Below are positions 1 to 10,993 of a stretch of 12,885 nucleotides of DNA, one piece after another. Position 1 is the stretch's first letter, and each line of letters opens with the position of its first letter. The stretch lies in the IMG/VR virus record IMGVR_UViG_2657245081_000004; one strand, 5' to 3'. Below the pieces are notes generated by a model. It did no database searches and was not told the DNA's origin. It was given only the letters and a program-made list of their open reading frames with translations. The position numbers and the translations under genes are program-made. The DNA comes from a virus (lineage: Duplodnaviria > Heunggongvirae > Uroviricota > Caudoviricetes).

Positions 1-1392
1 TCAAGAATAGCCGCAAAATGTTGTCATTACAACAAGGCGGCTATATGACGCTCGCGCAGNNNNNNNNNNTCCAGACTCATAGCGGGATAAAAGCTGACCG
101 TTCGGATCAACCGCCAGTGCATCCCTGTAATGCTCCCGAACCCTCTGAGCTTTTTCGCTGACACTCATCGCTGTGAATNNNNNNNNNNACATCCATTTTC
201 CGTATACCTGAAATACCATTTGCGCATCTGCATGGCCCATCTGGTTTGCTATAAATGCCGGGTTAGCACCAGCTGTCAGCGACCAGCAGGCATAAGTATG
301 TCTCGACTGATATGATTTTCGATGGCGGAGTCCGGCACGTTTTATCGCTGCGTCCCACATCTGCCTTATTGAGTCAACGGTAAAATGGTCACCATAATTT
401 TTTACTCTCGCTGACACTTCAGGTTGAAAAACAAAGGTGCATTTATGTTTTTCTGTTCTGCCATACTCTCTGAGGTGAACATCAATGATATGCTCTTTGC
501 TCAGTCTCGTTAATGTCATCTGACTCCGGAGAGCGTCGATTGCTGGCTTAATAAGATGAATGACCCGATTGGTTCCCGCCTGTGTTTTTGGTACCGTGAA
601 ACGGTCTTTTGCTAAATTTCTCCTGATCATCATTGTTCCATTTTTCAGATCTATGTCCTCCCATCCAAGTGCACACAGCTCACCAGGGCGAACGCCAGTA
701 TAAACAGAAACACACCATAAATTTTTGGCTTGCTGATTTCTGCACGCATCGATAAGACGGATGAATTCCTCCCGCGAAAGAGGATCCGGAATGGTTCTTG
801 ATTCCTTTAATGGCGAGATCCCCTTAAACGGGTTATCTGCCAGGTAACCGTTATCAACACCAAACTGGAACACGGCGTTAAGATTTGTCATGTAATTATT
901 TACAGTTACAGCCGATCTCCCTGGTTGTGTAACAATATAGTTACTTTTGGGGATCTGGTATCCAGTCAGTAGCTCTTTACGAACCTCCAGTAATTTTTCT
1001 TTATTAATCGATGAGGCAAGATTTTTTTCACCGATTATGCTCAGGATATTTTTGATGACGGCACGGTATGTGTTGAGTGATGTTTTTGCGACTTCAGTTT
1101 CTTTCAGTGCCAGAAATTTTTCAGCCAGTTCTTTTATGGTTAAATCTTGTCGGGTCTCACCAAATTTTTCCAGATTGCGTGAGGAGGGAAACTGTTTTGC
1201 ATAGTCGAAAACACCAGTTTTTATTGCGTAACAAACAGAGGCGCGTAGCTCACCTGCAACGCGCCTGTTTTTTGCTGTGTCAGGAACCCCCAGGTTTTCC
1301 CTGACTCTTACGCCTTTATAAACAAACCAGATACGTAATTTCCCTCCATGGTTTTCCACGCCTGTCGGATATTTCATTTCAATTTCTCTCAT
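1..1392 (-). CDS. int: Phage integrase, tyrosine recombinase family (463 codons; two 10-nt N runs inside the 3' end)
   Basis: Translation has integrase catalytic-domain motifs (RHTYACWSL...MGHADAQMVFQVYGKW with the putative nucleophile Tyr). Frame is kept across both N runs and the stop is at 1-3. Alternative start at 1377 (MKYPTG...) has a slightly better purine-rich upstream region. Confidence 0.85.
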   Translation of the reverse strand: MREIEMKYPTGVENHGGKLRIWFVYKGVRVRENLGVPDTAKNRRVAGELRASVCYAIKTGVFDYAKQFPSSRNLEKFGETRQDLTIKELAEKFLALKETEVAKTSLNTYRAVIKNILSIIGEKNLASSINKEKLLEVRKELLTGYQIPKSNYIVTQPGRSAVTVNNYMTNLNAVFQFGVDNGYLADNPFKGISPLKESRTIPDPLSREEFIRLIDACRNQQAKNLWCVSVYTGVRPGELCALGWEDIDLKNGTMMIRRNLAKDRFTVPKTQAGTNRVIHLIKPAIDALRSQMTLTRLSKEHIIDVHLREYGRTEKHKCTFVFQPEVSARVKNYGDHFTVDSIRQMWDAAIKRAGLRHRKSYQSRHTYACWSLTAGANPAFIANQMGHADAQMVFQVYGKWMXXXXFTAMSVSEKAQRVREHYRDALAVDPNGQLLSRYESGXXXXARASYSRLVVMTTFCGYS

Positions 1393-1735: not shown

Positions 1736-4207
1736 TTAAGAATCAGCCTGACTCGGGATCAGTTTTTGCCAGATAACTGAAACGTATTTTGCCTGGTAAC
1801 GGGCGTCATCAAGTGCATTATGGCGCTCACCTTCGAATGGAATAGCCGTTCTGGCATCGAAGTCTATGGCTTTCCCCAGCTCAACGATTGTGCGTACATC
1901 GCGATCGTTGTAGTAACGCCACGGGCAGGGGATCCCCTGCCGTTCGTATGAACGGCGCAAAATCGTGTTGTCGAAGTTGGCTCCATTTCCCCAGACCTGA
2001 ACAAAAAATTCACCGGAGTTTTCGTCGATAAATTCCCACAATTGTAACAGTGCATCATCTAACGGGATTTCATCGGTCATAATGGCAGATTGCGCTTCGC
2101 GTGATTGCTTAAGCCACCATTTAATGGTGTCCCGATCAATGACTCCGCCAGCAGTTTCCAGATCGATAGTCTTACTAAATTCCGGTCCCATATCTCCGGT
2201 TTGCGGATCGAAAAATATTGCACCTATTGAGATGATCGGGGCATCAGGATTTTTTCCCATGGTTTCAAGGTCGATCATTAGATGGTCACACGTCCTGCTG
2301 GTGGATGTGATTTCTTGATGACCGTTCACCTTAATTGAGTGATCTGCCGTCTCGCCAGTTTCATTATCGCTATCGTGATGCTGATTGCCGCCAGTGTTCT
2401 CCTTGTGTGGATGTTCAGCGCCTTCCATTTCCTCCGGATCATCTTCCTGAACTTCAATCTGATACTCTTCATCGAATGTTTCCTGGTATGTTGCGTCGCC
2501 CATTACCGCGCCACAATCAGGGCAGTTGCCGCCGCCGGTCTGACCGCAGGCGGTGCAGACTTTTTCCACTTCCTGTTGCGCCACTGATTCAGGCTGTTTC
2601 GTTTCTGGCTCGTTTTGTAACGCATTTGGGCTGTTTTGTTCCGCTTTTTGGTAGTTCCGTTCCGATTCATGCTGGTTCTGGTTCACAGAATCGCGGGTCT
2701 GGATCCCCTTAACCCATTTCGGATCATTCGGGTCACTAATCCCTTCAACAAATTCACCACGTGATGCAGCAAGCAACTTATCGGCGTCAGGCTGGATGAT
2801 ATTGGCTGCCTGCATAATTTTGTTTACTTCGTCAGCGGTAACTTTTATCGGCTCTGGTTGTTCTGAATCTTCAGCGGTATCTACATTTTGCGGTAAGCCC
2901 GTGTATGTGCCATTTTTTCGGGCAAAATATTCTTCTTTTGTGATTTCAGTGGCGCCAGCAGCCAGTGCCTTATCCAGACCAGAAAGTTTGTTTGCGCGAC
3001 CGTATTTTTCTCCGTCCTTATCTGCGAAGAGGAAATAGAACGGCCCCTCACGCTCTACAGATGGTTCAGCTTCCGGCGCGGTTTCATTTTTTGGGATATC
3101 AGATACCTCAGTTTCCACTGCATCAGTTTGTGTTTCTGATGACTGGAGAACATCAACAGTGCCCAGGTCTGTTTCTTCATTCTCAAACACGCCCTTTGTC
3201 GTCAGGTATTCGCAGATATATTTGTTCAGTGCTACGGGATCTTTGTGAATGTCGATCGGACGCTCACGGACAAGGCCAAAAATAGTTTGGCGGTCGTAGC
3301 GAAGGGCATCAGGCTGTTTGCGCATTGATGCCGAGATACGCTTCCAGTCTTCGCGGTCGTTGTCGATAACTTCATTTTTTGCCCAGCGATGGATGCTGCC
3401 GTCAATGTTTCCGGCATCCACATCACCAGGCCAGAGAGCGTAGGCCAGTTCGTCATCCAGTGTTTTCCATGTCTGCTTGTATTCGCGATGAATGGCAGCA
3501 ATGACCGGGCTGATTTTTCCTGTTGAATTTTCAGTGTACTGTTGATTGGCTCTGGCGCGGGCGAGATCAACAACAGACGTGTATTTTCCGGTTTCCTTGC
3601 GTTCACCTTCGCGACGTTTTTTCCAGATGCGCATCTCTGCCTGAATTTCGGGCCATTTAGCACCAGGAATACATTTATGCTTAACCCACCCAATGGCGTG
3701 CAACTTAAGCTCCGGATACATGGCGTTAACTTCTGGCATTTTCATCAACGCTTCAACGATATGTCCGTCGAATGTTGCCATGTCTTCCTGCAACAATTCC
3801 TGTGCGCTAATAACCATATCAACGGTGATGTTTTCACATGTGTCGAACTTAACCATGACAGCGTTCTGTACTTCAGGGGCCAGCTTGTCAAAAGTGACGT
3901 TCATCGGATCGGATTCAGTCTCAACCGGGACAAAAGAAGCAGACTCCTCATCCCAGCGGTTTTCCTGCATATATTCAGCATCCCATGAATCGAGGGCAGG
4001 GCGGGGTATGCCAGGTTTATCCTCGCAGACAATAAATTTATAAGCGCAGTCCTGAGCAGCCGGATAATGTTCCAGGAATTGCCAGTGAAATTTTGCTCGA
4101 GCACGGCGTTCGTCGCCAGCTTCAATGGCTGTGGCTACAGCCACAGCGCCTTCTTCCCTTGTTGCCAGTTCGTCAGGAATAGCGGCGCAAATAAAGACTT
4201 TACTCAT
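1736..4207 (-). CDS. ydfE: Large prophage protein with C-terminal DEDDh (DnaQ-like) 3'-5' exonuclease domain and internal CxxC...CxxC zinc ribbon (YdfE-like)
   Basis: C-terminus carries motifs IDLETMG, GNGANFDNTIL and HNALDDARYQ typical of DEDDh exonucleases; CTACGQTGGGNCPDCG zinc ribbon mid-protein; N-terminus MSKVFICAAIPDELA recalled as YdfE. Start chosen at ATG 4207 (AGGT 9 nt upstream) rather than track start 4243. Confidence 0.75.
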   Translation of the reverse strand: MSKVFICAAIPDELATREEGAVAVATAIEAGDERRARAKFHWQFLEHYPAAQDCAYKFIVCEDKPGIPRPALDSWDAEYMQENRWDEESASFVPVETESDPMNVTFDKLAPEVQNAVMVKFDTCENITVDMVISAQELLQEDMATFDGHIVEALMKMPEVNAMYPELKLHAIGWVKHKCIPGAKWPEIQAEMRIWKKRREGERKETGKYTSVVDLARARANQQYTENSTGKISPVIAAIHREYKQTWKTLDDELAYALWPGDVDAGNIDGSIHRWAKNEVIDNDREDWKRISASMRKQPDALRYDRQTIFGLVRERPIDIHKDPVALNKYICEYLTTKGVFENEETDLGTVDVLQSSETQTDAVETEVSDIPKNETAPEAEPSVEREGPFYFLFADKDGEKYGRANKLSGLDKALAAGATEITKEEYFARKNGTYTGLPQNVDTAEDSEQPEPIKVTADEVNKIMQAANIIQPDADKLLAASRGEFVEGISDPNDPKWVKGIQTRDSVNQNQHESERNYQKAEQNSPNALQNEPETKQPESVAQQEVEKVCTACGQTGGGNCPDCGAVMGDATYQETFDEEYQIEVQEDDPEEMEGAEHPHKENTGGNQHHDSDNETGETADHSIKVNGHQEITSTSRTCDHLMIDLETMGKNPDAPIISIGAIFFDPQTGDMGPEFSKTIDLETAGGVIDRDTIKWWLKQSREAQSAIMTDEIPLDDALLQLWEFIDENSGEFFVQVWGNGANFDNTILRRSYERQGIPCPWRYYNDRDVRTIVELGKAIDFDARTAIPFEGERHNALDDARYQAKYVSVIWQKLIPSQADS

Positions 4208-4299
4208 TTGTTTTAACCTCATGACAGATTTAAGGATGAACAAATCCCTGCCATTGCTGGCATATAAGAATGAAACCGGATATTTATTACGGAACTGTT

Positions 4300-4491
4300 T
4301 TAAAGACCTGCCGGGATTTCGATATTATCCTGGTGAATAACTTTATCGACCGGGTAACAGTTACCGGGAATTTTCTGTTCGGTTGCTGCAGTCATACACT
4401 CCTGCATTGTCCTGTGAACACTGACTGCAATATCAACTGGCTCTCCGGAAACAAGAAAAACTGTCAGAACAAGCACAAATGCTGAATTCAT
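4300..4491 (-). CDS. ydfD: YdfD, small lysis-inducing protein with N-terminal hydrophobic segment (63 aa)
   Basis: MNSAFVLVLTVFLVSGEP... matches remembered Qin YdfD; AAGGA about 9 nt upstream of ATG 4491; start overlaps dicB stop (ATGA). The track's longer N-terminus is an upstream extension. Confidence 0.8.
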   Translation of the reverse strand: MNSAFVLVLTVFLVSGEPVDIAVSVHRTMQECMTAATEQKIPGNCYPVDKVIHQDNIEIPAGL

Positions 4492-4676
4492 TGTGCACAT
4501 CCTTTTGGCATCAGACGTAAACGAGCCAGCATTGAAACAATGCATATTTTATTTAATAGCTCCCGTTCTTGTTTTCTCTTGTTAATGGCATCTTCAGTAA
4601 ATACTGGGTTACTGATAGTGACACCAATTTCAAAACAACCTTCAGACGTATTAACGTTTGGTAATAACGTTTTCAT
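4488..4676 (-). CDS. dicB: DicB cell-division inhibitor (62 aa)
   Basis: MKTLLPNVNTSEGCFEIGVTISNPVFTEDAINKRKQERELLNKICIVSMLARLRLMPKGCAQ matches remembered DicB; GAGGA upstream of ATG 4676; lies immediately downstream of DicF as in Qin. Confidence 0.9.
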   Translation of the reverse strand: MKTLLPNVNTSEGCFEIGVTISNPVFTEDAINKRKQERELLNKICIVSMLARLRLMPKGCAQ

Positions 4677-4845
4677 TATCGCGTCCTCAACAATGAATTT
4701 TGTGATGCAGTGCCTGGTGCCTCCAGGTGACGTTAACCAGTTAACAATTAACGCCGGATACAGAGAATCCACCCATAACACTGTTTTTGGTTTTAACTGT
4801 TCCGCGTGCGCTCAGCCGCATTCACCACATCACAAAATTCACTTT

Positions 4846-4903
4846 AAAAAGGGCGGCAGAGCAGTCACGGAGTAAAACTGATACCGCCAAACGTCACCAG
4901 AAA
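4846..4903 (-). ncRNA. dicF: DicF small RNA (ftsZ-targeting) with its intrinsic terminator
   Basis: Minus-strand sequence UUUCUGGUGACGUUUGGCGGUAUCAGUUUUACUCCGUGACUGCUCUGCCGCCCUUUUU matches remembered DicF; ends in a GGCGG/CCGCC stem plus U5. Confidence 0.85.
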
Positions 4904-6069: not shown

Positions 6070-6708
6070 TTAAATATCTTGTTGAATTTTAAAGCATACG
6101 CCCAATATGCAAGATAGATCATCCAGCATAATTGAAGGGTAGCGAGGATTCGTGGGGACTAAAAGAATATCCGGCCCTTCTATCTCCAGTTTACGAATGA
6201 CAGGTGTTGTGGTCCCTTTGGGTAAGGCAAGGACAATATTTCCTGGTTGTACGGTTCGATCGGGATCAACAAAAACTGTTGAACCATTTGGGATGGAAAC
6301 TCCCCCACCAGATGTTGACATACTGTCACTCTCTAGAACAACTGCAAAGGTATTGACCGGGATTTCTCCGACAAGCTGCACACAAGAGGTTATTGAGGAA
6401 TTTTTCATATAATCACTCCAGCTTGCTGCCTGCTGAAGTGATAGTAGCGGAACCGTTTTTATCGGCGGTAAAGATAGATCAAGCGAATCACCTGTATTTA
6501 ACTCTCCTCCATTAAGAAGCCAATTTTCGTTTACTTTCAATATTTTTGCCAGTGAACTTATGTAACGCGAGGACGGCGCTCCTCCACCGTTCATCCATTG
6601 ACTTACGGAGCCTTTTGATGCGCCAGTGCCATTGACAAGGTCTTTGCCTTTCAGGTTTAGCGCATGCATACGTTGGGTTATGCGTTCAGATATAGTTTGC
6701 TTGCTCAT
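6070..6708 (-). CDS. Prophage repressor, lambda CI / LexA-like (N-terminal HTH, C-terminal S24 peptidase domain)
   Basis: N-terminus ...RMHALNLKGKDLVNGTGASKGSVSQWMNGGG is HTH-like; C-terminal half has S24-type Ser (DSMS) and Lys (VIRKLE) context; divergent from the cro-like gene. Confidence 0.85.
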   Translation of the reverse strand: MSKQTISERITQRMHALNLKGKDLVNGTGASKGSVSQWMNGGGAPSSRYISSLAKILKVNENWLLNGGELNTGDSLDLSLPPIKTVPLLSLQQAASWSDYMKNSSITSCVQLVGEIPVNTFAVVLESDSMSTSGGGVSIPNGSTVFVDPDRTVQPGNIVLALPKGTTTPVIRKLEIEGPDILLVPTNPRYPSIMLDDLSCILGVCFKIQQDI

Positions 6709-6725: not shown

Positions 6726-6799
6726 CAGATGGTTTTGTTTCTTGACTTTCTTTGGTTTTGATTATTAAACTTTTGACGTTCAGTTTTATGGAGCGACTC

Positions 6800-7030
6800 A
6801 TGAAAAAATCAGAAGTATTAGGCTATTTTGGCGGAGTTGTTAAAACAGCCGCAGCTCTAGGAACGTCAAAAACCACAGTCAGCATGTGGGGGGAAGAGGT
6901 TCCGTGGAAATGGGCGTTGCTAATTCAGGCAGTCACTGCCGGGGCGCTCAAATATGAGTTACACATACCGACGGTTGTCATTCCCGGTTCTGATCATAAT
7001 CCGCCTTCTAACCAAGGGGGGGATTCATGA
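6800..7030 (+). CDS. Cro-like regulator (YdaS/DicC family)
   Basis: MKKSEVLGYFGGVVKTAAALGTSKTTVSMWG... resembles DicC/YdaS N-termini from memory; GGAG 5 nt upstream of ATG 6800; stop overlaps the next gene start (ATGA). Confidence 0.75.
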   Translation: MKKSEVLGYFGGVVKTAAALGTSKTTVSMWGEEVPWKWALLIQAVTAGALKYELHIPTVVIPGSDHNPPSNQGGDS

Positions 7031-7452
7031 AAATCAAGCATGAACACATCCGCATGGCGATGAATGCCTGGGCGCATCCGGACGGCGAAAAAGTACCGGC
7101 TGCGAAAATTACCAAAGCGTATTTCGAGCTGGGAATGACGTTCCCGGAACTGTATGACGACAGCCATCCGGAAGCCCTGGCTCGCAATACCCAGAAAATT
7201 TTCCGCTGGGTAGAGAAAGACACCCCTGATGCAGTTGAAAAAATTCAGGCGTTGTTACCAGCGATCGAAAAGGCAATGCCACCTTTGCTGGTGGCCAGAA
7301 TGCGCAGCCACAGTTCAGCTTATTTTCGGGAGCTGGTGGAGACGCGGGAGCGACTGGTGAGAGACGCTGATGATTTTGTCGCAGTGGCAATCGCCGGTTT
7401 CAATCAGATGAACCGTGGTGGCCCGGCAGGAAATGCTGTGGCAGTACATTGA
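7027..7452 (+). CDS. CII-like regulator, YdaT family
   Basis: 141-aa protein starting MKIKHEHI..., recalled as YdaT-like; coupled to the cro-like gene at the CII position. Confidence 0.65.
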   Translation: MKIKHEHIRMAMNAWAHPDGEKVPAAKITKAYFELGMTFPELYDDSHPEALARNTQKIFRWVEKDTPDAVEKIQALLPAIEKAMPPLLVARMRSHSSAYFRELVETRERLVRDADDFVAVAIAGFNQMNRGGPAGNAVAVH

Positions 7453-7523: not shown

Positions 7524-8594
7524 ATGGCTAACGCCTGGCTCAGATTATGGCATGACATGCCAAATGACCCTAAGTGGCGAACAATTGCCAGGGTGTCAGG
7601 GCAGCCAATTGCAACAGTGATGGCAGTGTATATCCACCTCCTGGTGAGCGCGTCACGAAATGTCACGCGAGGTCACATTGATGTCACGACAGAAGATTTG
7701 GCAAGTGCGCTCGACGTGACAGAAGAGGTAATTGATTCAATTTTGCAGACGATGCAGGGGCGGGTACTTGATGGTGATTTAATCACTGGATGGGAAAAAC
7801 GCCAGGTGCTGAAAGAGGACAACGGCAATATTTCGCAAACCGCAAAATCTCCGGCAGAGCGCAAGAGGGCGCAGCGAGAGAGGGAAAGAAAGCGGGAACA
7901 AAATGGCGATTGTCACGGCGCGTCACGAAATGTCACGCACATGTCACGACGAGTCACGACAGATAAAGATACAGATAAAGATACAGATCAAGAAGATCAA
8001 AACACTATGGTCCATGGCGTAAAAAACGCCACGAACCAGGCAGGGGATGTTCAGACCGTCAATCCTGGTCAGCCAGCAGGCACGACACCGGAAGCCGATT
8101 CAGCGTATGCGCTGAAAGCCGATTCGGGCGCTGTGCAGCAGGTGATGACCCCAAGGCCGGAGCAATCACACCAACTGCAGCAGCCTGAAGCCGATTCCGC
8201 CATTCAGCGGGAAGCCGATCGGGTAGTCCCGGAAAACACCGGGCTGTCTGTGGGACGAGTGGATTATCCGGATGTGTTCGAACAGGTCTGGCGGGAGTAC
8301 CCGTTGCGTGCCGGAGCAAACCCGAAGAAATCCGCTTTCAGTGCCTGGAAGGCCAGATTACGCGAGGGGGTGCCACCAGAGGCCATGCTGGATGGCGTGA
8401 GGCGTTACGCAAGATACTTGGCGGCTACCGGGAAAACGGGAACGGAATTTGTTCAGCGAGCGACGACGTTTTTTGGACCGGACCGGAATTTTGAGAACCC
8501 CTGGTTGCTCCCGGTAAGCGGCACGAACAACCAGCGTTGTGTGAATCATATTTCTGAACCGGATACCGAAATTCCACCGGGCTTCAGGGGGTAA
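7524..8594 (+). CDS. Phage replication initiation protein (O-like N-terminal region; C-terminal domain resembling DnaT)
   Basis: GAGG 5 nt upstream of ATG 7524; iteron arrays lie inside the gene as in lambda O; C-terminal region (VDYPDVFEQVWREYPL...FVQRATTFFGPDRNF) recalled as DnaT-like. Confidence 0.65.
   Translation: MANAWLRLWHDMPNDPKWRTIARVSGQPIATVMAVYIHLLVSASRNVTRGHIDVTTEDLASALDVTEEVIDSILQTMQGRVLDGDLITGWEKRQVLKEDNGNISQTAKSPAERKRAQRERERKREQNGDCHGASRNVTHMSRRVTTDKDTDKDTDQEDQNTMVHGVKNATNQAGDVQTVNPGQPAGTTPEADSAYALKADSGAVQQVMTPRPEQSHQLQQPEADSAIQREADRVVPENTGLSVGRVDYPDVFEQVWREYPLRAGANPKKSAFSAWKARLREGVPPEAMLDGVRRYARYLAATGKTGTEFVQRATTFFGPDRNFENPWLLPVSGTNNQRCVNHISEPDTEIPPGFRG
7648..7688. repeat. 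Iteron cluster 1: four GTCACG/GTCAC repeats at about 10-bp spacing
   Basis: GTCACG at 7652, 7662, 7683 and GTCAC at 7672; contains the 21-mer GCGCGTCACGAAATGTCACGC that recurs exactly at 7918-7938. Confidence 0.7.
7912..8003. repeat. Iteron cluster 2 (five GTCACG repeats at 10-11 bp spacing) followed by an AT-rich tandem repeat; putative origin of replication
   Basis: GTCACG at 7912, 7922, 7932, 7943, 7953; then AGATAAAGATACAGATAAAGATACAGATCAAGAAGATCAA. Iterons plus an AT-rich tract inside the initiator gene is the lambda ori layout. Confidence 0.65.
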
Positions 8595-8634
8595 GTGTTG
8601 ATTTCTGGTCATGAGGTAATTTTCAGGAGGGCTT

Positions 8635-9057
8635 GTGGCAAAAGTTTTTACACAAGAAGAGCGAGAAAAAATTAAAGGGCAGGTTGTTGAACTCGTACGC
8701 CAGAGTGGGCGTGAGACGTTACGGCAACTGGAAGTCAAGACAGGTGCGACAAGATATCTGATGAGCGTTCTCGCAAGAGAGCTGGTTGCCAGCGGCGATG
8801 TATACAACTCCGGCTACGGGTTATTCCCCTCTGAACAGGCGCGTAAGGACTGGCAAAACGCCCGCAAAAAACTCTCGAGGGCAAAGGTGAAGAAACCTGC
8901 TGTGGTTGATCCGGACCTTATCTGGTCATCACCTGACGGAGAAATACGTCGCTACGACAGTCGCCTAAACATAATCTGTCGCGAGTGCCGGAAGAGTGAA
9001 GCTATGCAGCGTGTACTGGCTTTCTATCAGGGTAATTTTCAGGAGGCGGTACTGTGA
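8635..9057 (+). CDS. Hypothetical protein (140 aa), GTG start
   Basis: AGGAGG 4 nt upstream of GTG 8635; unrecognised; flanked by a 16-bp direct repeat. Confidence 0.55.
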   Translation: MAKVFTQEEREKIKGQVVELVRQSGRETLRQLEVKTGATRYLMSVLARELVASGDVYNSGYGLFPSEQARKDWQNARKKLSRAKVKKPAVVDPDLIWSSPDGEIRRYDSRLNIICRECRKSEAMQRVLAFYQGNFQEAVL

Positions 9058-9114: not shown

Positions 9115-9471
9115 ATGGAAATAAAACCAGAGGATGAGTTAAGCAATATCGTTTTATTTCCGGTAAAAGAGGATGACCCTCGTAATCAGGTTAATTTTCT
9201 TTATGAGCCATCGGAAAGACCATATTGTCATCACGCCTCTGTCCGGGTTGACGAAAAAGAGCGTCAGGTCCGCTGTAAAATCTGCGGTGCAGTTGTGGAG
9301 CCATTTGACTGGATGCTCTCTGTGGCGAAAAGAGAAACCAGACTGGCAGATGATGTAAGGCTCTTGCGTCAGGAGGAGCGGGAAAGGCGAAAAAATATAG
9401 AAAAGCTAATTCAGATTGAGCGTAACGCGAAAGCGCGGATACGCAGGGCGACAAAATCCAGAACTGAATAA
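9115..9471 (+). CDS. Hypothetical protein (118 aa) with possible zinc-ribbon motif (CHH...CKICG) and basic C-terminal tail
   Basis: GGAGAGGAG upstream of ATG 9115; alternative GTG start at 9058 would add 19 aa. Confidence 0.55.
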   Translation: MEIKPEDELSNIVLFPVKEDDPRNQVNFLYEPSERPYCHHASVRVDEKERQVRCKICGAVVEPFDWMLSVAKRETRLADDVRLLRQEERERRKNIEKLIQIERNAKARIRRATKSRTE

Positions 9472-10662: not shown

Positions 10663-10734
10663 GACTGCGGGTGCTTGAGGCTATCTGTCTCAGGCATGAA
10701 CACCAAAAGGCAGATAGAGAAAAGCCCCAGTTAA

Positions 10735-10800
10735 CATTACGCGTCCTGCAAGACGCTTAACATTAATCTGAGGCCATATCTATGCGACACATAGAGATTA
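10735..10800 (-). ncRNA. Putative Sok-like antisense RNA region (approximate bounds)
   Basis: Minus-strand promoter-like TTGACC (complement of 10821-10826), 16-nt spacer, GCTAAT, reading across the mok-like start; position matches hok/sok architecture. Ends not determinable. Confidence 0.35.
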
Positions 10801-10841
10801 GCCTCTTACGGACCGAAAGGTCAAGGAGAAGCAGGCTATGA
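10782..10841 (+). CDS. Short leader ORF (19 aa) ending in ATGA overlap with the hok start; mok-like coupling frame
   Basis: ATG 10782 with GAGG 8 nt upstream; stop TGA overlaps the hok ATG. Confidence 0.35.
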   Translation: MRHIEISLLRTERSRRSRL

Positions 10842-10993
10842 AGCAGCAAAAGGCGATGTTAATCGCCCTGATCGTCATCTGTTTAACCGTCATAGTGACG
10901 GCACTGGTAACGAGGAAAGACCTCTGCGAGGTACGAATCCGAACCGGCCAGACGGAGGTCGCTGTCTTCACAGCTTACGAACCTGAGGAGTAA
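10838..10993 (+). CDS. hokD: Hok-family type I toxin (51 aa), HokD/RelF-like
   Basis: Hand translation MKQQKAMLIALIVICLTVIVTALVTRKDLCEVRIRTGQTEVAVFTAYEPEE matches remembered HokD; not in the ORF track (below cutoff). Confidence 0.85.
   Translation: MKQQKAMLIALIVICLTVIVTALVTRKDLCEVRIRTGQTEVAVFTAYEPEE

What the first reader, a model, noticed from the sequence alone, without database searches (positions are those of the whole stretch)
7524..9057. Replication module lacks a recognisable helicase loader
The initiator is followed by unrecognised small genes rather than a lambda P-like or DnaC-like loader (YdaV in Rac). Together with the DnaT-like C-terminal region of the initiator, this suggests replication may use the host PriA/DnaT-dependent primosome, or that the 140-aa protein at 8635-9057 is an unrecognised loader or adaptor.
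Basis: inference. Interest (0 to 1): 0.45.

Follow-up and report, generated by a model that had tools for sequence, protein, structure and literature searches.

The report
Loader-less phage replication module, DnaT-like tail
This E. coli prophage has an origin-binding replication initiator but no helicase loader of its own, and the initiator ends in the same short peptide as the host protein DnaT, a peptide that across phages goes with DnaC-type loaders, so the phage most likely borrows the host's DnaC-DnaB machinery.

Summary
No ORF in the window resembles DnaC, lambda P or DnaB. The initiator (7524-8594) is followed directly by a DUF977 protein and a small zinc-ribbon protein.

This "O-only" layout is already on record: 34 of 314 lambdoid phages have it, and the source calls its replication "not yet understood" (PMC12315714).

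The DnaT likeness is real but covers only the last ~17-24 residues (…VNHISEPDTEIPPGFRG). The domain before the tail is not a DnaT domain.

The 140-aa protein is a Ren-family winged-helix protein, not a loader. It also sits downstream of DnaC-like loaders in sister phages.

New here: the tail is a portable C-terminal peptide found on at least five unrelated initiator C-domains.
- It was present in 76/76 initiators upstream of YdaV-type DnaC genes.
- It was present in 0/72 upstream of lambda P.
- It was present in 0/49 upstream of a DnaC+DnaB-type pair.
- Two predictions made from a different tail (LDCxEW→P-like) both held.
- Viable loader-less phages (LLS, mEp460) carry it.
- Host DnaT, which carries it, sits immediately upstream of dnaC.

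Best reading: the initiator binds GTCACG iterons inside its own gene and recruits host DnaC·DnaB through the tail. The phage's own DnaC was lost by deletion. The tail's physical target is inferred, not shown.

The parts
7524..8594 (+). Replication initiator ('phage replisome organizer'), 356 aa. It has an N-terminal origin-binding domain, a low-complexity linker that contains the origin, a helical 'type A' C-domain, and a DnaT-like tail.
   Evidence: phrog_3729 replication initiation protein, E=1.8e-256. Weak TIGR01714 phage_rep_org_N match over aa 7-127. PGAP name.
7652..7720 (+). Iteron cluster A: four GTCAC(G/A) repeats in 10-11 bp phase (7652-7688), plus one inverted copy (7715-7720).
   Evidence: The window holds 13 GTCACG against 4.98 expected (0 of 200 shuffles reach 13), and 9 of them lie in 7652-7958.
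7912..7993 (+). Iteron cluster B: five GTCACG repeats in 10-11 bp phase (7912-7958), followed by an A/T-rich tandem repeat (ACAGATAAAGAT) x2.9 (7959-7993). This is the putative origin and unwinding region, inside the linker-coding part of the gene.
   Evidence: The same iterons sit at the same positions in genes that share the N-domain but not the C-half (L008, L011, L461). They are absent from genes that share the C-half but not the N-domain (L004, L014).
8253..8513 (+). 'Type A' C-terminal domain (aa 244-330; motif YPxRAGxNPK…GTEFVxQAxTFFGPD). It is a small helical bundle and is not a DnaT domain.
8532..8594 (+). DnaT-like C-terminal tail (QRCVNHISEPDTEIPPGFRG plus stop). The core PDTEIPPGFRG is at 8559-8591. 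It is predicted to be unstructured, and the coding segment is a conserved mosaic joint.
   Evidence: Searches give the identity to the DnaT and YdaU termini. The 60-nt coding segment is about 95% identical to that of an otherwise unrelated lambda-O-CTD-type initiator gene. pLDDT is 51-71 in this stretch.
8635..9057 (+). DUF977 / Ren-family winged-helix protein, 140 aa. It is accessory and not a loader.
   Evidence: PF06163 E=4.2e-28; phrog_142 E=2.3e-47. BLASTP to lambda Ren E=4e-7. wHTH fold. No PADLOC hit.
9115..9471 (+). 118-aa zinc-ribbon plus coiled-coil protein of unknown function. It is an optional neighbour.
   Evidence: phrog_1621 (unknown function), E=3e-56. Zn_Ribbon_TF match below cut-off. 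Present in only about 20 of 76 near-identical loader-less loci.

Best explanation
This is a lambda-O-type replication module that has lost its own DnaC-type loader.

Proposed sequence of events:
1. The initiator's N-terminal domain binds nine phased GTCACG iterons that lie inside its own gene, next to an A/T-rich repeat. The anatomy and the co-variation are shown; binding itself is inferred.
2. The initiator's C-terminus carries a short unstructured peptide, …PDxxIPxGFRG-COOH, identical in kind to the C-terminus of host DnaT and of Rac YdaU (shown).
3. Across enterobacterial phages this peptide is a portable partner-specifying tail that travels with YdaV-type DnaC loaders (shown statistically).
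4. In this prophage the phage DnaC and DUF1627 genes are absent, exactly at the initiator stop codon (shown).
5. The tail therefore most likely recruits the host DnaC·DnaB complex to the opened origin (inferred; host DnaC is 50% identical to YdaV). The initiator would do at the origin what DnaT does at restart forks.

The DUF977 and zinc-ribbon genes are accessory.
For: Origin:
- The iterons are enriched and phased.
- They co-vary with the N-domain, not with the C-half.

Tail and partner, sampled by partner:
- 76/76 initiators upstream of YdaV-type DnaC carry PDxxIPPGF[RKS]G.
- 0/72 initiators upstream of lambda P carry it; all end in LDLTNTDWIYGV[DE]L, one variant with FD for the leading LD.
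- 0/6 upstream of the O157 short P-like gene carry it; they end in ALDCPDWCDD.
- 0/49 type-A initiators upstream of a Stx1-type DnaC+DnaB pair carry it; they end in …KLTF/…NLTF or …NFNW.
- Two predictions made beforehand held: the Serratia and Yersinia initiators with LDCxEW tails are followed by PF06992 P-like genes.

Tail census:
- 117 ORFs in 38 clusters carry the tail on at least 5 unrelated C-domains.
- Their downstream partner is DnaC-like or nothing recognisable, never P-like or DnaB-like.

Loader-less and viable:
- Phage LLS's only replication protein ends in …VDTKIPEGFRG.
- mEp460 (complete genome, no loader annotated) and 2H10 end in …IPAGFRG.

The same initiator with and without a loader:
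- 3 of 80 near-identical loci have DnaC-like plus DUF1627 inserted right after the initiator stop codon.
- 76 of 80 go straight to DUF977.
- More distant full-length relatives (47% identity) keep the DnaC-like gene.
- A Salmonella relative lost it independently.

Host parallel:
- In 20 Enterobacterales species the tail-bearing DnaT gene is followed by dnaC within 0-4 nt.
- YdaV is 50% identical to E. coli DnaC.
- Real tail-bearing proteins were found only in Enterobacterales.
- A Ralstonia phage with the type A domain plus an IstB-like loader lacks the tail.
Against: - No experiment or structure shows what the tail binds.
- The published DnaT partners seen structurally are PriA and PriB. The 2026 cryo-EM paper speculates that the DnaT N-terminal domain, not the tail, recruits DnaB/DnaC.
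- Removing DnaT residues 154-179 mainly lowered ssDNA affinity and cooperativity in vitro.
- A PriA/DnaT-dependent route would also need DnaC, so the association with DnaC-type loaders does not by itself prove a direct tail-DnaC contact.
- The sampled loci are highly redundant (many near-identical E. coli prophages), so the independent lineages number in the tens, not hundreds.
- This particular prophage has not been shown to replicate. Its closest complete copy has frameshifted int and cro genes.
Confidence: 0.5

Rival explanations
1. One reading: the tail makes the initiator engage the host restart primosome. It would dock on PriA where DnaT docks, or bind or nucleate host DnaT on the opened origin. 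DnaB would then be loaded by the PriA/PriB/DnaT route and host DnaC.
For: - The tail is DnaT's own C-terminus.
- DnaT's C-terminal domain docks on PriA and forms filaments on ssDNA.
- Some phage initiators carry a true DnaT C-domain (PF17948) plus the tail and have no loader (cluster L163).
- This route also needs a DnaC-type loader, so it fits the 76/76 association.
Against: - The tail is exchanged as a unit with the adjacent loader gene. It is replaced by other tails when the neighbour is lambda P or a phage helicase. That is the signature of a direct contact with the neighbouring gene's product, as for lambda O and P.
- A peptide that copied DnaT's PriA-binding element would compete with DnaT rather than cooperate with it (inference).
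- The tail sits on domains unrelated to DnaT's C-domain.
Confidence: 0.2
2. The module is a decaying remnant. Deletion of the phage DnaC-like gene left the prophage unable to replicate on its own. Its wide occurrence would reflect vertical inheritance of a defective prophage.
For: - Sister loci with the same initiator still have DnaC-like plus DUF1627, and the breakpoint is exactly at the initiator stop codon.
- The closest complete copy has frameshifted int and cro genes and a pseudogene downstream.
Against: - Loader-less, tail-bearing modules occur in plaque-forming phages (LLS, mEp460, 2H10).
- Loss happened repeatedly in separate lineages, and the initiator and tail stayed intact.
- The loader-less junction is more common than the loader-bearing one (1551 against 639 genomes).
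- In this window the repressor, cro, cII-like and initiator genes are intact.
Confidence: 0.12
3. The tail has no partner-recruiting role. It would be a general ssDNA-binding or oligomerisation aid, or a stability signal.
For: DnaT 84-153, which lacks residues 154-179, binds ssDNA about 2-3 times more weakly and less cooperatively than DnaT 84-179.
Against: - A generic ssDNA or stability element would not be expected to track the loader type so strictly (76/76 against 0/72, 0/49 and 0/6).
- It would not be expected to sit always at the very C-terminus of unrelated domains.
Confidence: 0.1
4. The DUF977 protein (or the 118-aa zinc-ribbon protein) is a new kind of helicase loader or adaptor that replaces DnaC.
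For: It occupies the position right after the initiator. No function has been tested. No solved structure of a relative was found by sequence search of the PDB.
Against: - It belongs to the Ren family and has a wHTH fold.
- It co-occurs with DnaC-like loaders.
- It is absent from other loader-less modules.
- The zinc-ribbon gene is present in only about a quarter of near-identical loci.
Confidence: 0.05

Closest known systems
Lambda O/P replication module (ori-lambda inside gene O)
   Same: - An initiator with an N-terminal DNA-binding domain.
- Iterons plus an A/T-rich stretch inside the linker-coding part of its own gene.
- A C-terminal part that specifies the helicase-delivery partner.
- A Ren-family gene downstream.
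   Different: - There is no P gene.
- The C-domain is not lambda O's.
- The C-terminal tail is …IPPGFRG instead of lambda O's …LDLTNTDWIYGVDL.
'O-only' lambdoid replication modules (phage LLS; 34 of 314 lambdoid phages, Genome Res 2025, PMC12315714)
   Same: A single initiator gene with no helicase or loader. LLS O ends in the same tail (…VDTKIPEGFRG).
   Different: LLS O has an HTH_36 N-domain and a Phg_2220_C C-domain. Both the N- and C-domains here are different. The paper states that the replication mechanism is not understood and does not mention the tail in the passages read.
Rac prophage ydaU-ydaV-ydaW (initiator, DnaC-like, wHTH protein)
   Same: The flanking gene order is the same (Cro/YdaS-like, YdaT-like, initiator). 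YdaU ends in …VSLPDSAIPPGFRG.
   Different: Rac keeps the DnaC-like YdaV. YdaU is a DUF1376-type protein unrelated to this initiator apart from the tail.
E. coli DnaT (primosomal protein i) and the dnaT-dnaC operon
   Same: The last ~13-17 residues are near-identical (SEPDxxIPPGFRG). In sister phages the tail-bearing gene is followed within a few nucleotides by a DnaC-type gene, as dnaT is by dnaC.
   Different: - No DnaT N-terminal domain.
- No acidic PriB-binding linker was identified.
- No PF17948 three-helix ssDNA-binding domain.
- This protein has an origin-binding domain and iterons.
O157-type prophage initiators annotated 'DnaT-like ssDNA-binding domain-containing protein' (e.g. P0140, P0151); DopC of Brézellec et al. 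2017 (PMC5509034)
   Same: P0140 and P0151 share the same N-domain (85% identity) and the same GTCACG iterons. The literature already links O-like proteins with a DnaT C-terminal motif.
   Different: Those proteins carry a true PF17948 domain, lack the IPPGFRG tail (they end in …ALDCPDWCDD), and are followed by a short lambda-P-like loader.

Membership tests
Lambda-O-type / 'replisome organizer' iteron-binding initiator | N-terminal winged-helix origin-binding domain | tested here: inconclusive
   Strong PHROG matches (phrog_3729, E=1.8e-256; phrog_1408). The curated models are only weak: TIGR01714 E=0.016 at 15 bits against a 49.8-bit cut-off, and there is no Pfam hit. No structure of the N-domain was predicted.
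Lambda-O-type / 'replisome organizer' iteron-binding initiator | Iterons and an A/T-rich stretch inside the initiator gene, with specificity following the N-domain | tested here: met
   Nine phased GTCAC(G/A) repeats in two clusters plus an (ACAGATAAAGAT)n repeat. They co-vary with the N-domain across mosaics. Binding itself was not tested.
Lambda-O-type / 'replisome organizer' iteron-binding initiator | An adjacent phage gene for a helicase loader or helicase (P, DnaC-like, DnaB-like) | tested here: not met
   No such gene anywhere in the window. It is present in sister loci L044, L084 and L095.
'O-only' lambdoid replication module (PMC12315714) | An initiator homolog is the only replication gene; no helicase or loader | tested here: met
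   for this window. The class is described.
DnaT (primosomal protein) | C-terminal three-helix ssDNA-binding domain (Pfam PF17948) | tested here: not met
DnaT (primosomal protein) | Extreme C-terminal peptide …SEPDxxIPPGFRG | tested here: met
DnaT (primosomal protein) | N-terminal oligomerisation / PriB-binding domain and acidic linker | tested here: not met
   NCBIfam DnaT aligns only model positions 156-179. The alignment with E. coli DnaT shows no N-terminal similarity.
DnaC / IstB-type AAA+ loader, lambda P, DnaB helicase | A family profile match (PF01695/PF00308, PF06992, DnaB) in any ORF of the window | tested here: not met
   phmmer with YdaV, DnaC, lambda-P-like and DnaB-like references finds only DUF977 and the zinc-ribbon protein downstream.
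DUF977 / Ren family (the 140-aa protein) | PF06163 profile match and the conserved C-terminal ECRxSxAMxRVLAxY motif shared with lambda Ren | tested here: met
   PF06163 at 98.5 bits against a 22.1-bit cut-off. phrog_142. BLASTP to lambda Ren 73-92: 60% identity, E=4e-7. Exclusion (Ren) activity was not tested.

The most novel reading that the evidence does not exclude
The …PDxxIPxGFRG-COOH peptide is the missing DnaC·DnaB-recruiting element of DnaT. The host dnaT-dnaC operon would then be a domesticated phage 'initiator-loader' pair. Phages with the tail, including the unexplained O-only lambdoid phages, would load the host helicase by presenting this peptide at their origins, bypassing DnaA, PriA and PriB. 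More generally, lambdoid initiators would carry interchangeable C-terminal 'address tags': IPxGFRG for DnaC-type loaders, LDxxxxW for P-type loaders, and …LTF or …NFNW for the phage helicase-loader pair.
Probability: 0.35. Interest if true: 0.8.

Novelty: new member of a known kind. Interest (0 to 1): 0.6.

Why it matters
Two open questions become directly testable with one short peptide.

1. How do the roughly 11% of lambdoid phages that encode only an O-type initiator load a helicase? The 2025 Genome Research paper says this is "not yet understood".
2. How does the PriA-PriB-DnaT preprimosome recruit DnaB/DnaC? The 2026 Nature Communications paper says this "remains unknown".

If the tail is the DnaC-side docking peptide, three things follow:
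- It explains why phage DnaC genes can be lost repeatedly in enteric hosts.
- It gives a rule for reading the partner of a phage initiator from its last dozen residues.
- It supports a phage origin of the dnaTC operon.

If the tail binds something else, the strict tail-to-loader co-inheritance still needs an explanation.

Tried and rejected
- **First homolog search.** The search with the 121-aa C-terminal fragment returned mostly partial or frameshifted ORFs and was of little use.
- **First locus scan.** The scan with the type A profile returned only near-identical E. coli loci. It was useful for the indel analysis but not for diversity.
- **Literature.** Searches for the motif (PPGFRG etc.), for 'initiator-solo', for DUF977 and for phage 606R7 found nothing relevant. 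The 2019 DnaT C-domain crystal paper is not held. Weigel & Seitz 2006, which I recall classifies phage replication modules, did not come up in the library searches, so I do not rely on it.
- **Apparent exception.** A tail-bearing initiator with a 'P-like' hit downstream (L481) turned out to carry only a 73-aa remnant.
- **Non-enteric genome hits.** Hits to the tail pattern outside Enterobacterales were short spurious ORFs, except one likely mis-binned LLS-like O gene in a 'Geobacteraceae' MAG (L533).
- **Complex prediction.** Predicting the tail with DnaC, DnaB or PriA could not be run with the tools available.
Full report
**What the window is.** The window is the early region of an E. coli lambdoid prophage. 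It is 99.6% identical over 4.2 kb to a prophage next to tRNA-Ser/mtfA in strain FDAARGOS_536, which has lambda-like head and tail genes. The gene order is:
- integrase and excisionase
- an 835-aa exonuclease
- ydfD/dicB/DicF/ydfC/ydfB/ydfA-like genes
- an S24 repressor (6070-6708, minus strand)
- Cro (6752-7030)
- a YdaT/cII-like gene (7027-7452)
- the initiator (7524-8594)
- DUF977 (8635-9057)
- a 118-aa zinc-ribbon protein (9115-9471)
- small genes, then hok/sok, DUF968 and Q

None of the scanned ORFs (all plausible ones, including every rightward-strand ORF downstream of the initiator) matches DnaC/IstB AAA+, lambda P or DnaB in Pfam, PHROGs or NCBIfam. The arrangement is common. The contiguous initiator-to-DUF977 junction is in 1551 of 5426 complete E. 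coli genomes. An initiator-to-DnaC-like junction is in 639.

The general phenomenon is already published. Phage LLS has only an O homolog. [quoted passage not shown]

**Anatomy of the initiator.**
- Nine of the window's 13 GTCACG hexamers lie within 7652-7958, against 4.98 expected for the whole window (0 of 200 shuffles reach 13).
- They form two clusters in 10-11 bp phase. The second cluster abuts an A/T-rich tandem repeat, inside the low-complexity linker-coding part of the gene. This is the ori-lambda layout.
- The iterons follow the N-domain. They recur at the same positions in genes that share the N-domain but have another C-half (O157-type and Serratia). They are absent from genes that share the C-half but have another N-domain.
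- The C-half contains a helical 'type A' domain (aa 244-330). This is a large family, with 4061 cluster representatives.
- The last ~17-24 residues (VNHISEPDTEIPPGFRG) match the extreme C-terminus of DnaT. So 'DnaT-like C-terminal region' is true of the tail only.

**The downstream proteins are not loaders.**
- The 140-aa protein is DUF977 and 'Ren-like'.
- It shares lambda Ren's C-terminal motif.
- It has a confident winged-helix N-domain.
- It follows DnaC-like loaders in phage 75/02 Stx and many prophages, in the order DnaC > DUF1627 > DUF977.
- It is absent from other loader-less modules.
- The zinc-ribbon gene is optional.

**The tail is a portable, partner-linked peptide.** A pattern scan of IMG/VR for D-x-x-I-P-x-G-F-R-G-stop gave 117 ORFs in 38 clusters. 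Nearly all are initiator-sized. They carry the tail on at least five unrelated C-domains: type A, lambda-O-CTD type, YdaU/DUF1376 type, Phg_2220_C/LLS type and true DnaT-domain type. Downstream lies either a YdaV-type DnaC or nothing recognisable, never a P-like or DnaB-like gene.

Sampling by partner, which is independent of the tail pattern, gave these counts:

| Downstream partner | Initiators with the IPxGFRG tail | Ending found instead |
|---|---|---|
| YdaV-type DnaC | 76/76 | – |
| Lambda P | 0/72 | LDLTNTDWIYGV[DE]L (one variant FD…) |
| O157 short P-like | 0/6 | ALDCPDWCDD |
| Stx1-type DnaC + DnaB pair (type A initiators) | 0/49 | …KLTF/…NLTF or …NFNW |

Further points:
- I predicted that type A initiators ending in LDCxEW (Serratia, Yersinia) would be followed by a P-like gene. 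Both were.
- At the DNA level, the 60-nt tail-coding segment (8532-8594) is about 95% identical between this gene and an otherwise unrelated lambda-O-CTD-type initiator gene. Similarity starts and stops abruptly, which makes it a mosaic joint.
- Rac YdaU ends in the same tail and is followed by YdaV.
- In a species-dereplicated genome scan, real tail-bearing proteins were found only in Enterobacterales apart from one likely mis-binned contig (L533). They comprised 20 DnaT orthologs, each followed by dnaC within 0-4 nt; 13 prophage initiators followed by DnaC-like genes; and 11 loader-less initiators.
- Only 13 of 142 diverse type A representatives carry the tail. A Ralstonia phage with the type A domain and an IstB-like loader lacks it.

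**Loss of the phage loader.**
- Among 80 loci with a near-identical C-domain, 3 have DnaC-like plus DUF1627 inserted immediately after the initiator stop codon, and 76 run straight into DUF977.
- Distant full-length relatives (47% identity) keep the DnaC-like gene.
- A Salmonella relative (63% identity) and an E. coli lineage with another N-domain lost it independently.
- YdaV is 50% identical to host DnaC.
- Loader-less, tail-bearing modules exist in phages that are viable or were isolated as phages: LLS, mEp460 and 2H10.

**Most likely mechanism.**
- *Shown:* an iteron-type origin inside the gene; a DnaT-type tail; no loader; strict co-inheritance of the tail with DnaC-type loaders; repeated loader loss with the tail retained.
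- *Inferred:* the N-domain binds the iterons; the tail docks a DnaC-type loader (or the DnaB·DnaC complex); here the loader is host DnaC. The initiator would act at its origin as DnaT acts at restart forks.
- I put about 0.5 on this overall. I put about 0.7 on 'uses host DnaC·DnaB', and less on the direct tail-DnaC contact.
That route also needs DnaC and fits what is structurally known of DnaT.
- The defective-remnant reading (0.12) is weakened by the viable relatives.
- A non-specific role for the tail (0.1) is suggested only by in-vitro ssDNA data.
- A DUF977 loader (0.05) is unlikely.

**Comparison with what is known, and novelty.** The module is a member of the published but unexplained O-only class of lambdoid replication modules. 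It is related by mosaicism to Rac ydaU-ydaV-ydaW and to O157-type 'DnaT-like domain' initiators. A DnaT C-terminal motif in O-like proteins was noted before (PMC5509034), and NCBI already names relatives 'DnaT-like ssDNA-binding domain-containing protein'.

I could not find in the searchable literature either of two points: the recognition of the extreme tail as a separable peptide, or its one-to-one link with loader type. [quoted passage not shown]

**Verdict.** As an object it is ordinary (a common prophage module). It carries a comparative signal that makes two open questions testable. Interest 0.6.

Noticed in passing
window 4851-4902 (-): DicF antisense sRNA (Rfam RF00039, 76.7 bits). It lies between the ydfC-like ORF and dicB (4488-4781, minus strand), as in the Qin prophage dicBF operon.
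   Followed up: no
window 10669-10993 (+): A hok/sok type I toxin-antitoxin locus: sok RNA (RF01794, 106.7 bits) at 10669-10840, and a Hok-family toxin ORF at 10838-10993.
   Followed up: no
window 60-69 and 179-188: Two runs of 10 N (masked bases) inside the 3' part of the integrase gene. They make the integrase ORF appear fused and extended (463 aa).
   Followed up: no
window 8532-8594; L160 8970-9033: The 60-nt segment coding the tail is about 95% identical between otherwise unrelated initiator genes. This sharp mosaic joint could serve as a recombination site for swapping initiators and loaders.
   Followed up: partly
L219 (lambda O), L008/L011 (O157), L461/L462 (Serratia, Yersinia): Initiators partnered with P-type loaders share a different C-terminal tail (LDLTNTDWIYGVDL, ALDCPDWCDD, LDCxEW). 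This suggests a P-docking peptide at the end of lambda O.
   Followed up: partly
L004, L005, L102, L120, L559, window 8635-9057: A small winged-helix gene recurs immediately after the replication genes in many lambdoids: Ren, DUF977, DUF1627, PerC-like, or a TrmB-like 109-aa protein. Their role is unknown.
   Followed up: no
window 1736-4243 (-): An 835-aa left-arm protein with an Rv2179c-like 3'-5' exonuclease C-domain and a partial match to the middle of RecE/exonuclease VIII. It does not meet the equivalog cut-off for RecE.
   Followed up: no
L483, L484, L505, L543 (Hydrogenedentota MAG JAKPDK01): Several short ORFs end in …VIARSAxRHDVAIPLGFRG in one MAG. They are probably a repeated element that matches the tail pattern by chance.
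   Followed up: no
L533 (contig DAINBV010000046.1, labelled Geobacteraceae MAG): Carries an LLS-like O gene with the enterobacterial tail. It is probably a mis-binned enterobacterial phage contig.
   Followed up: no
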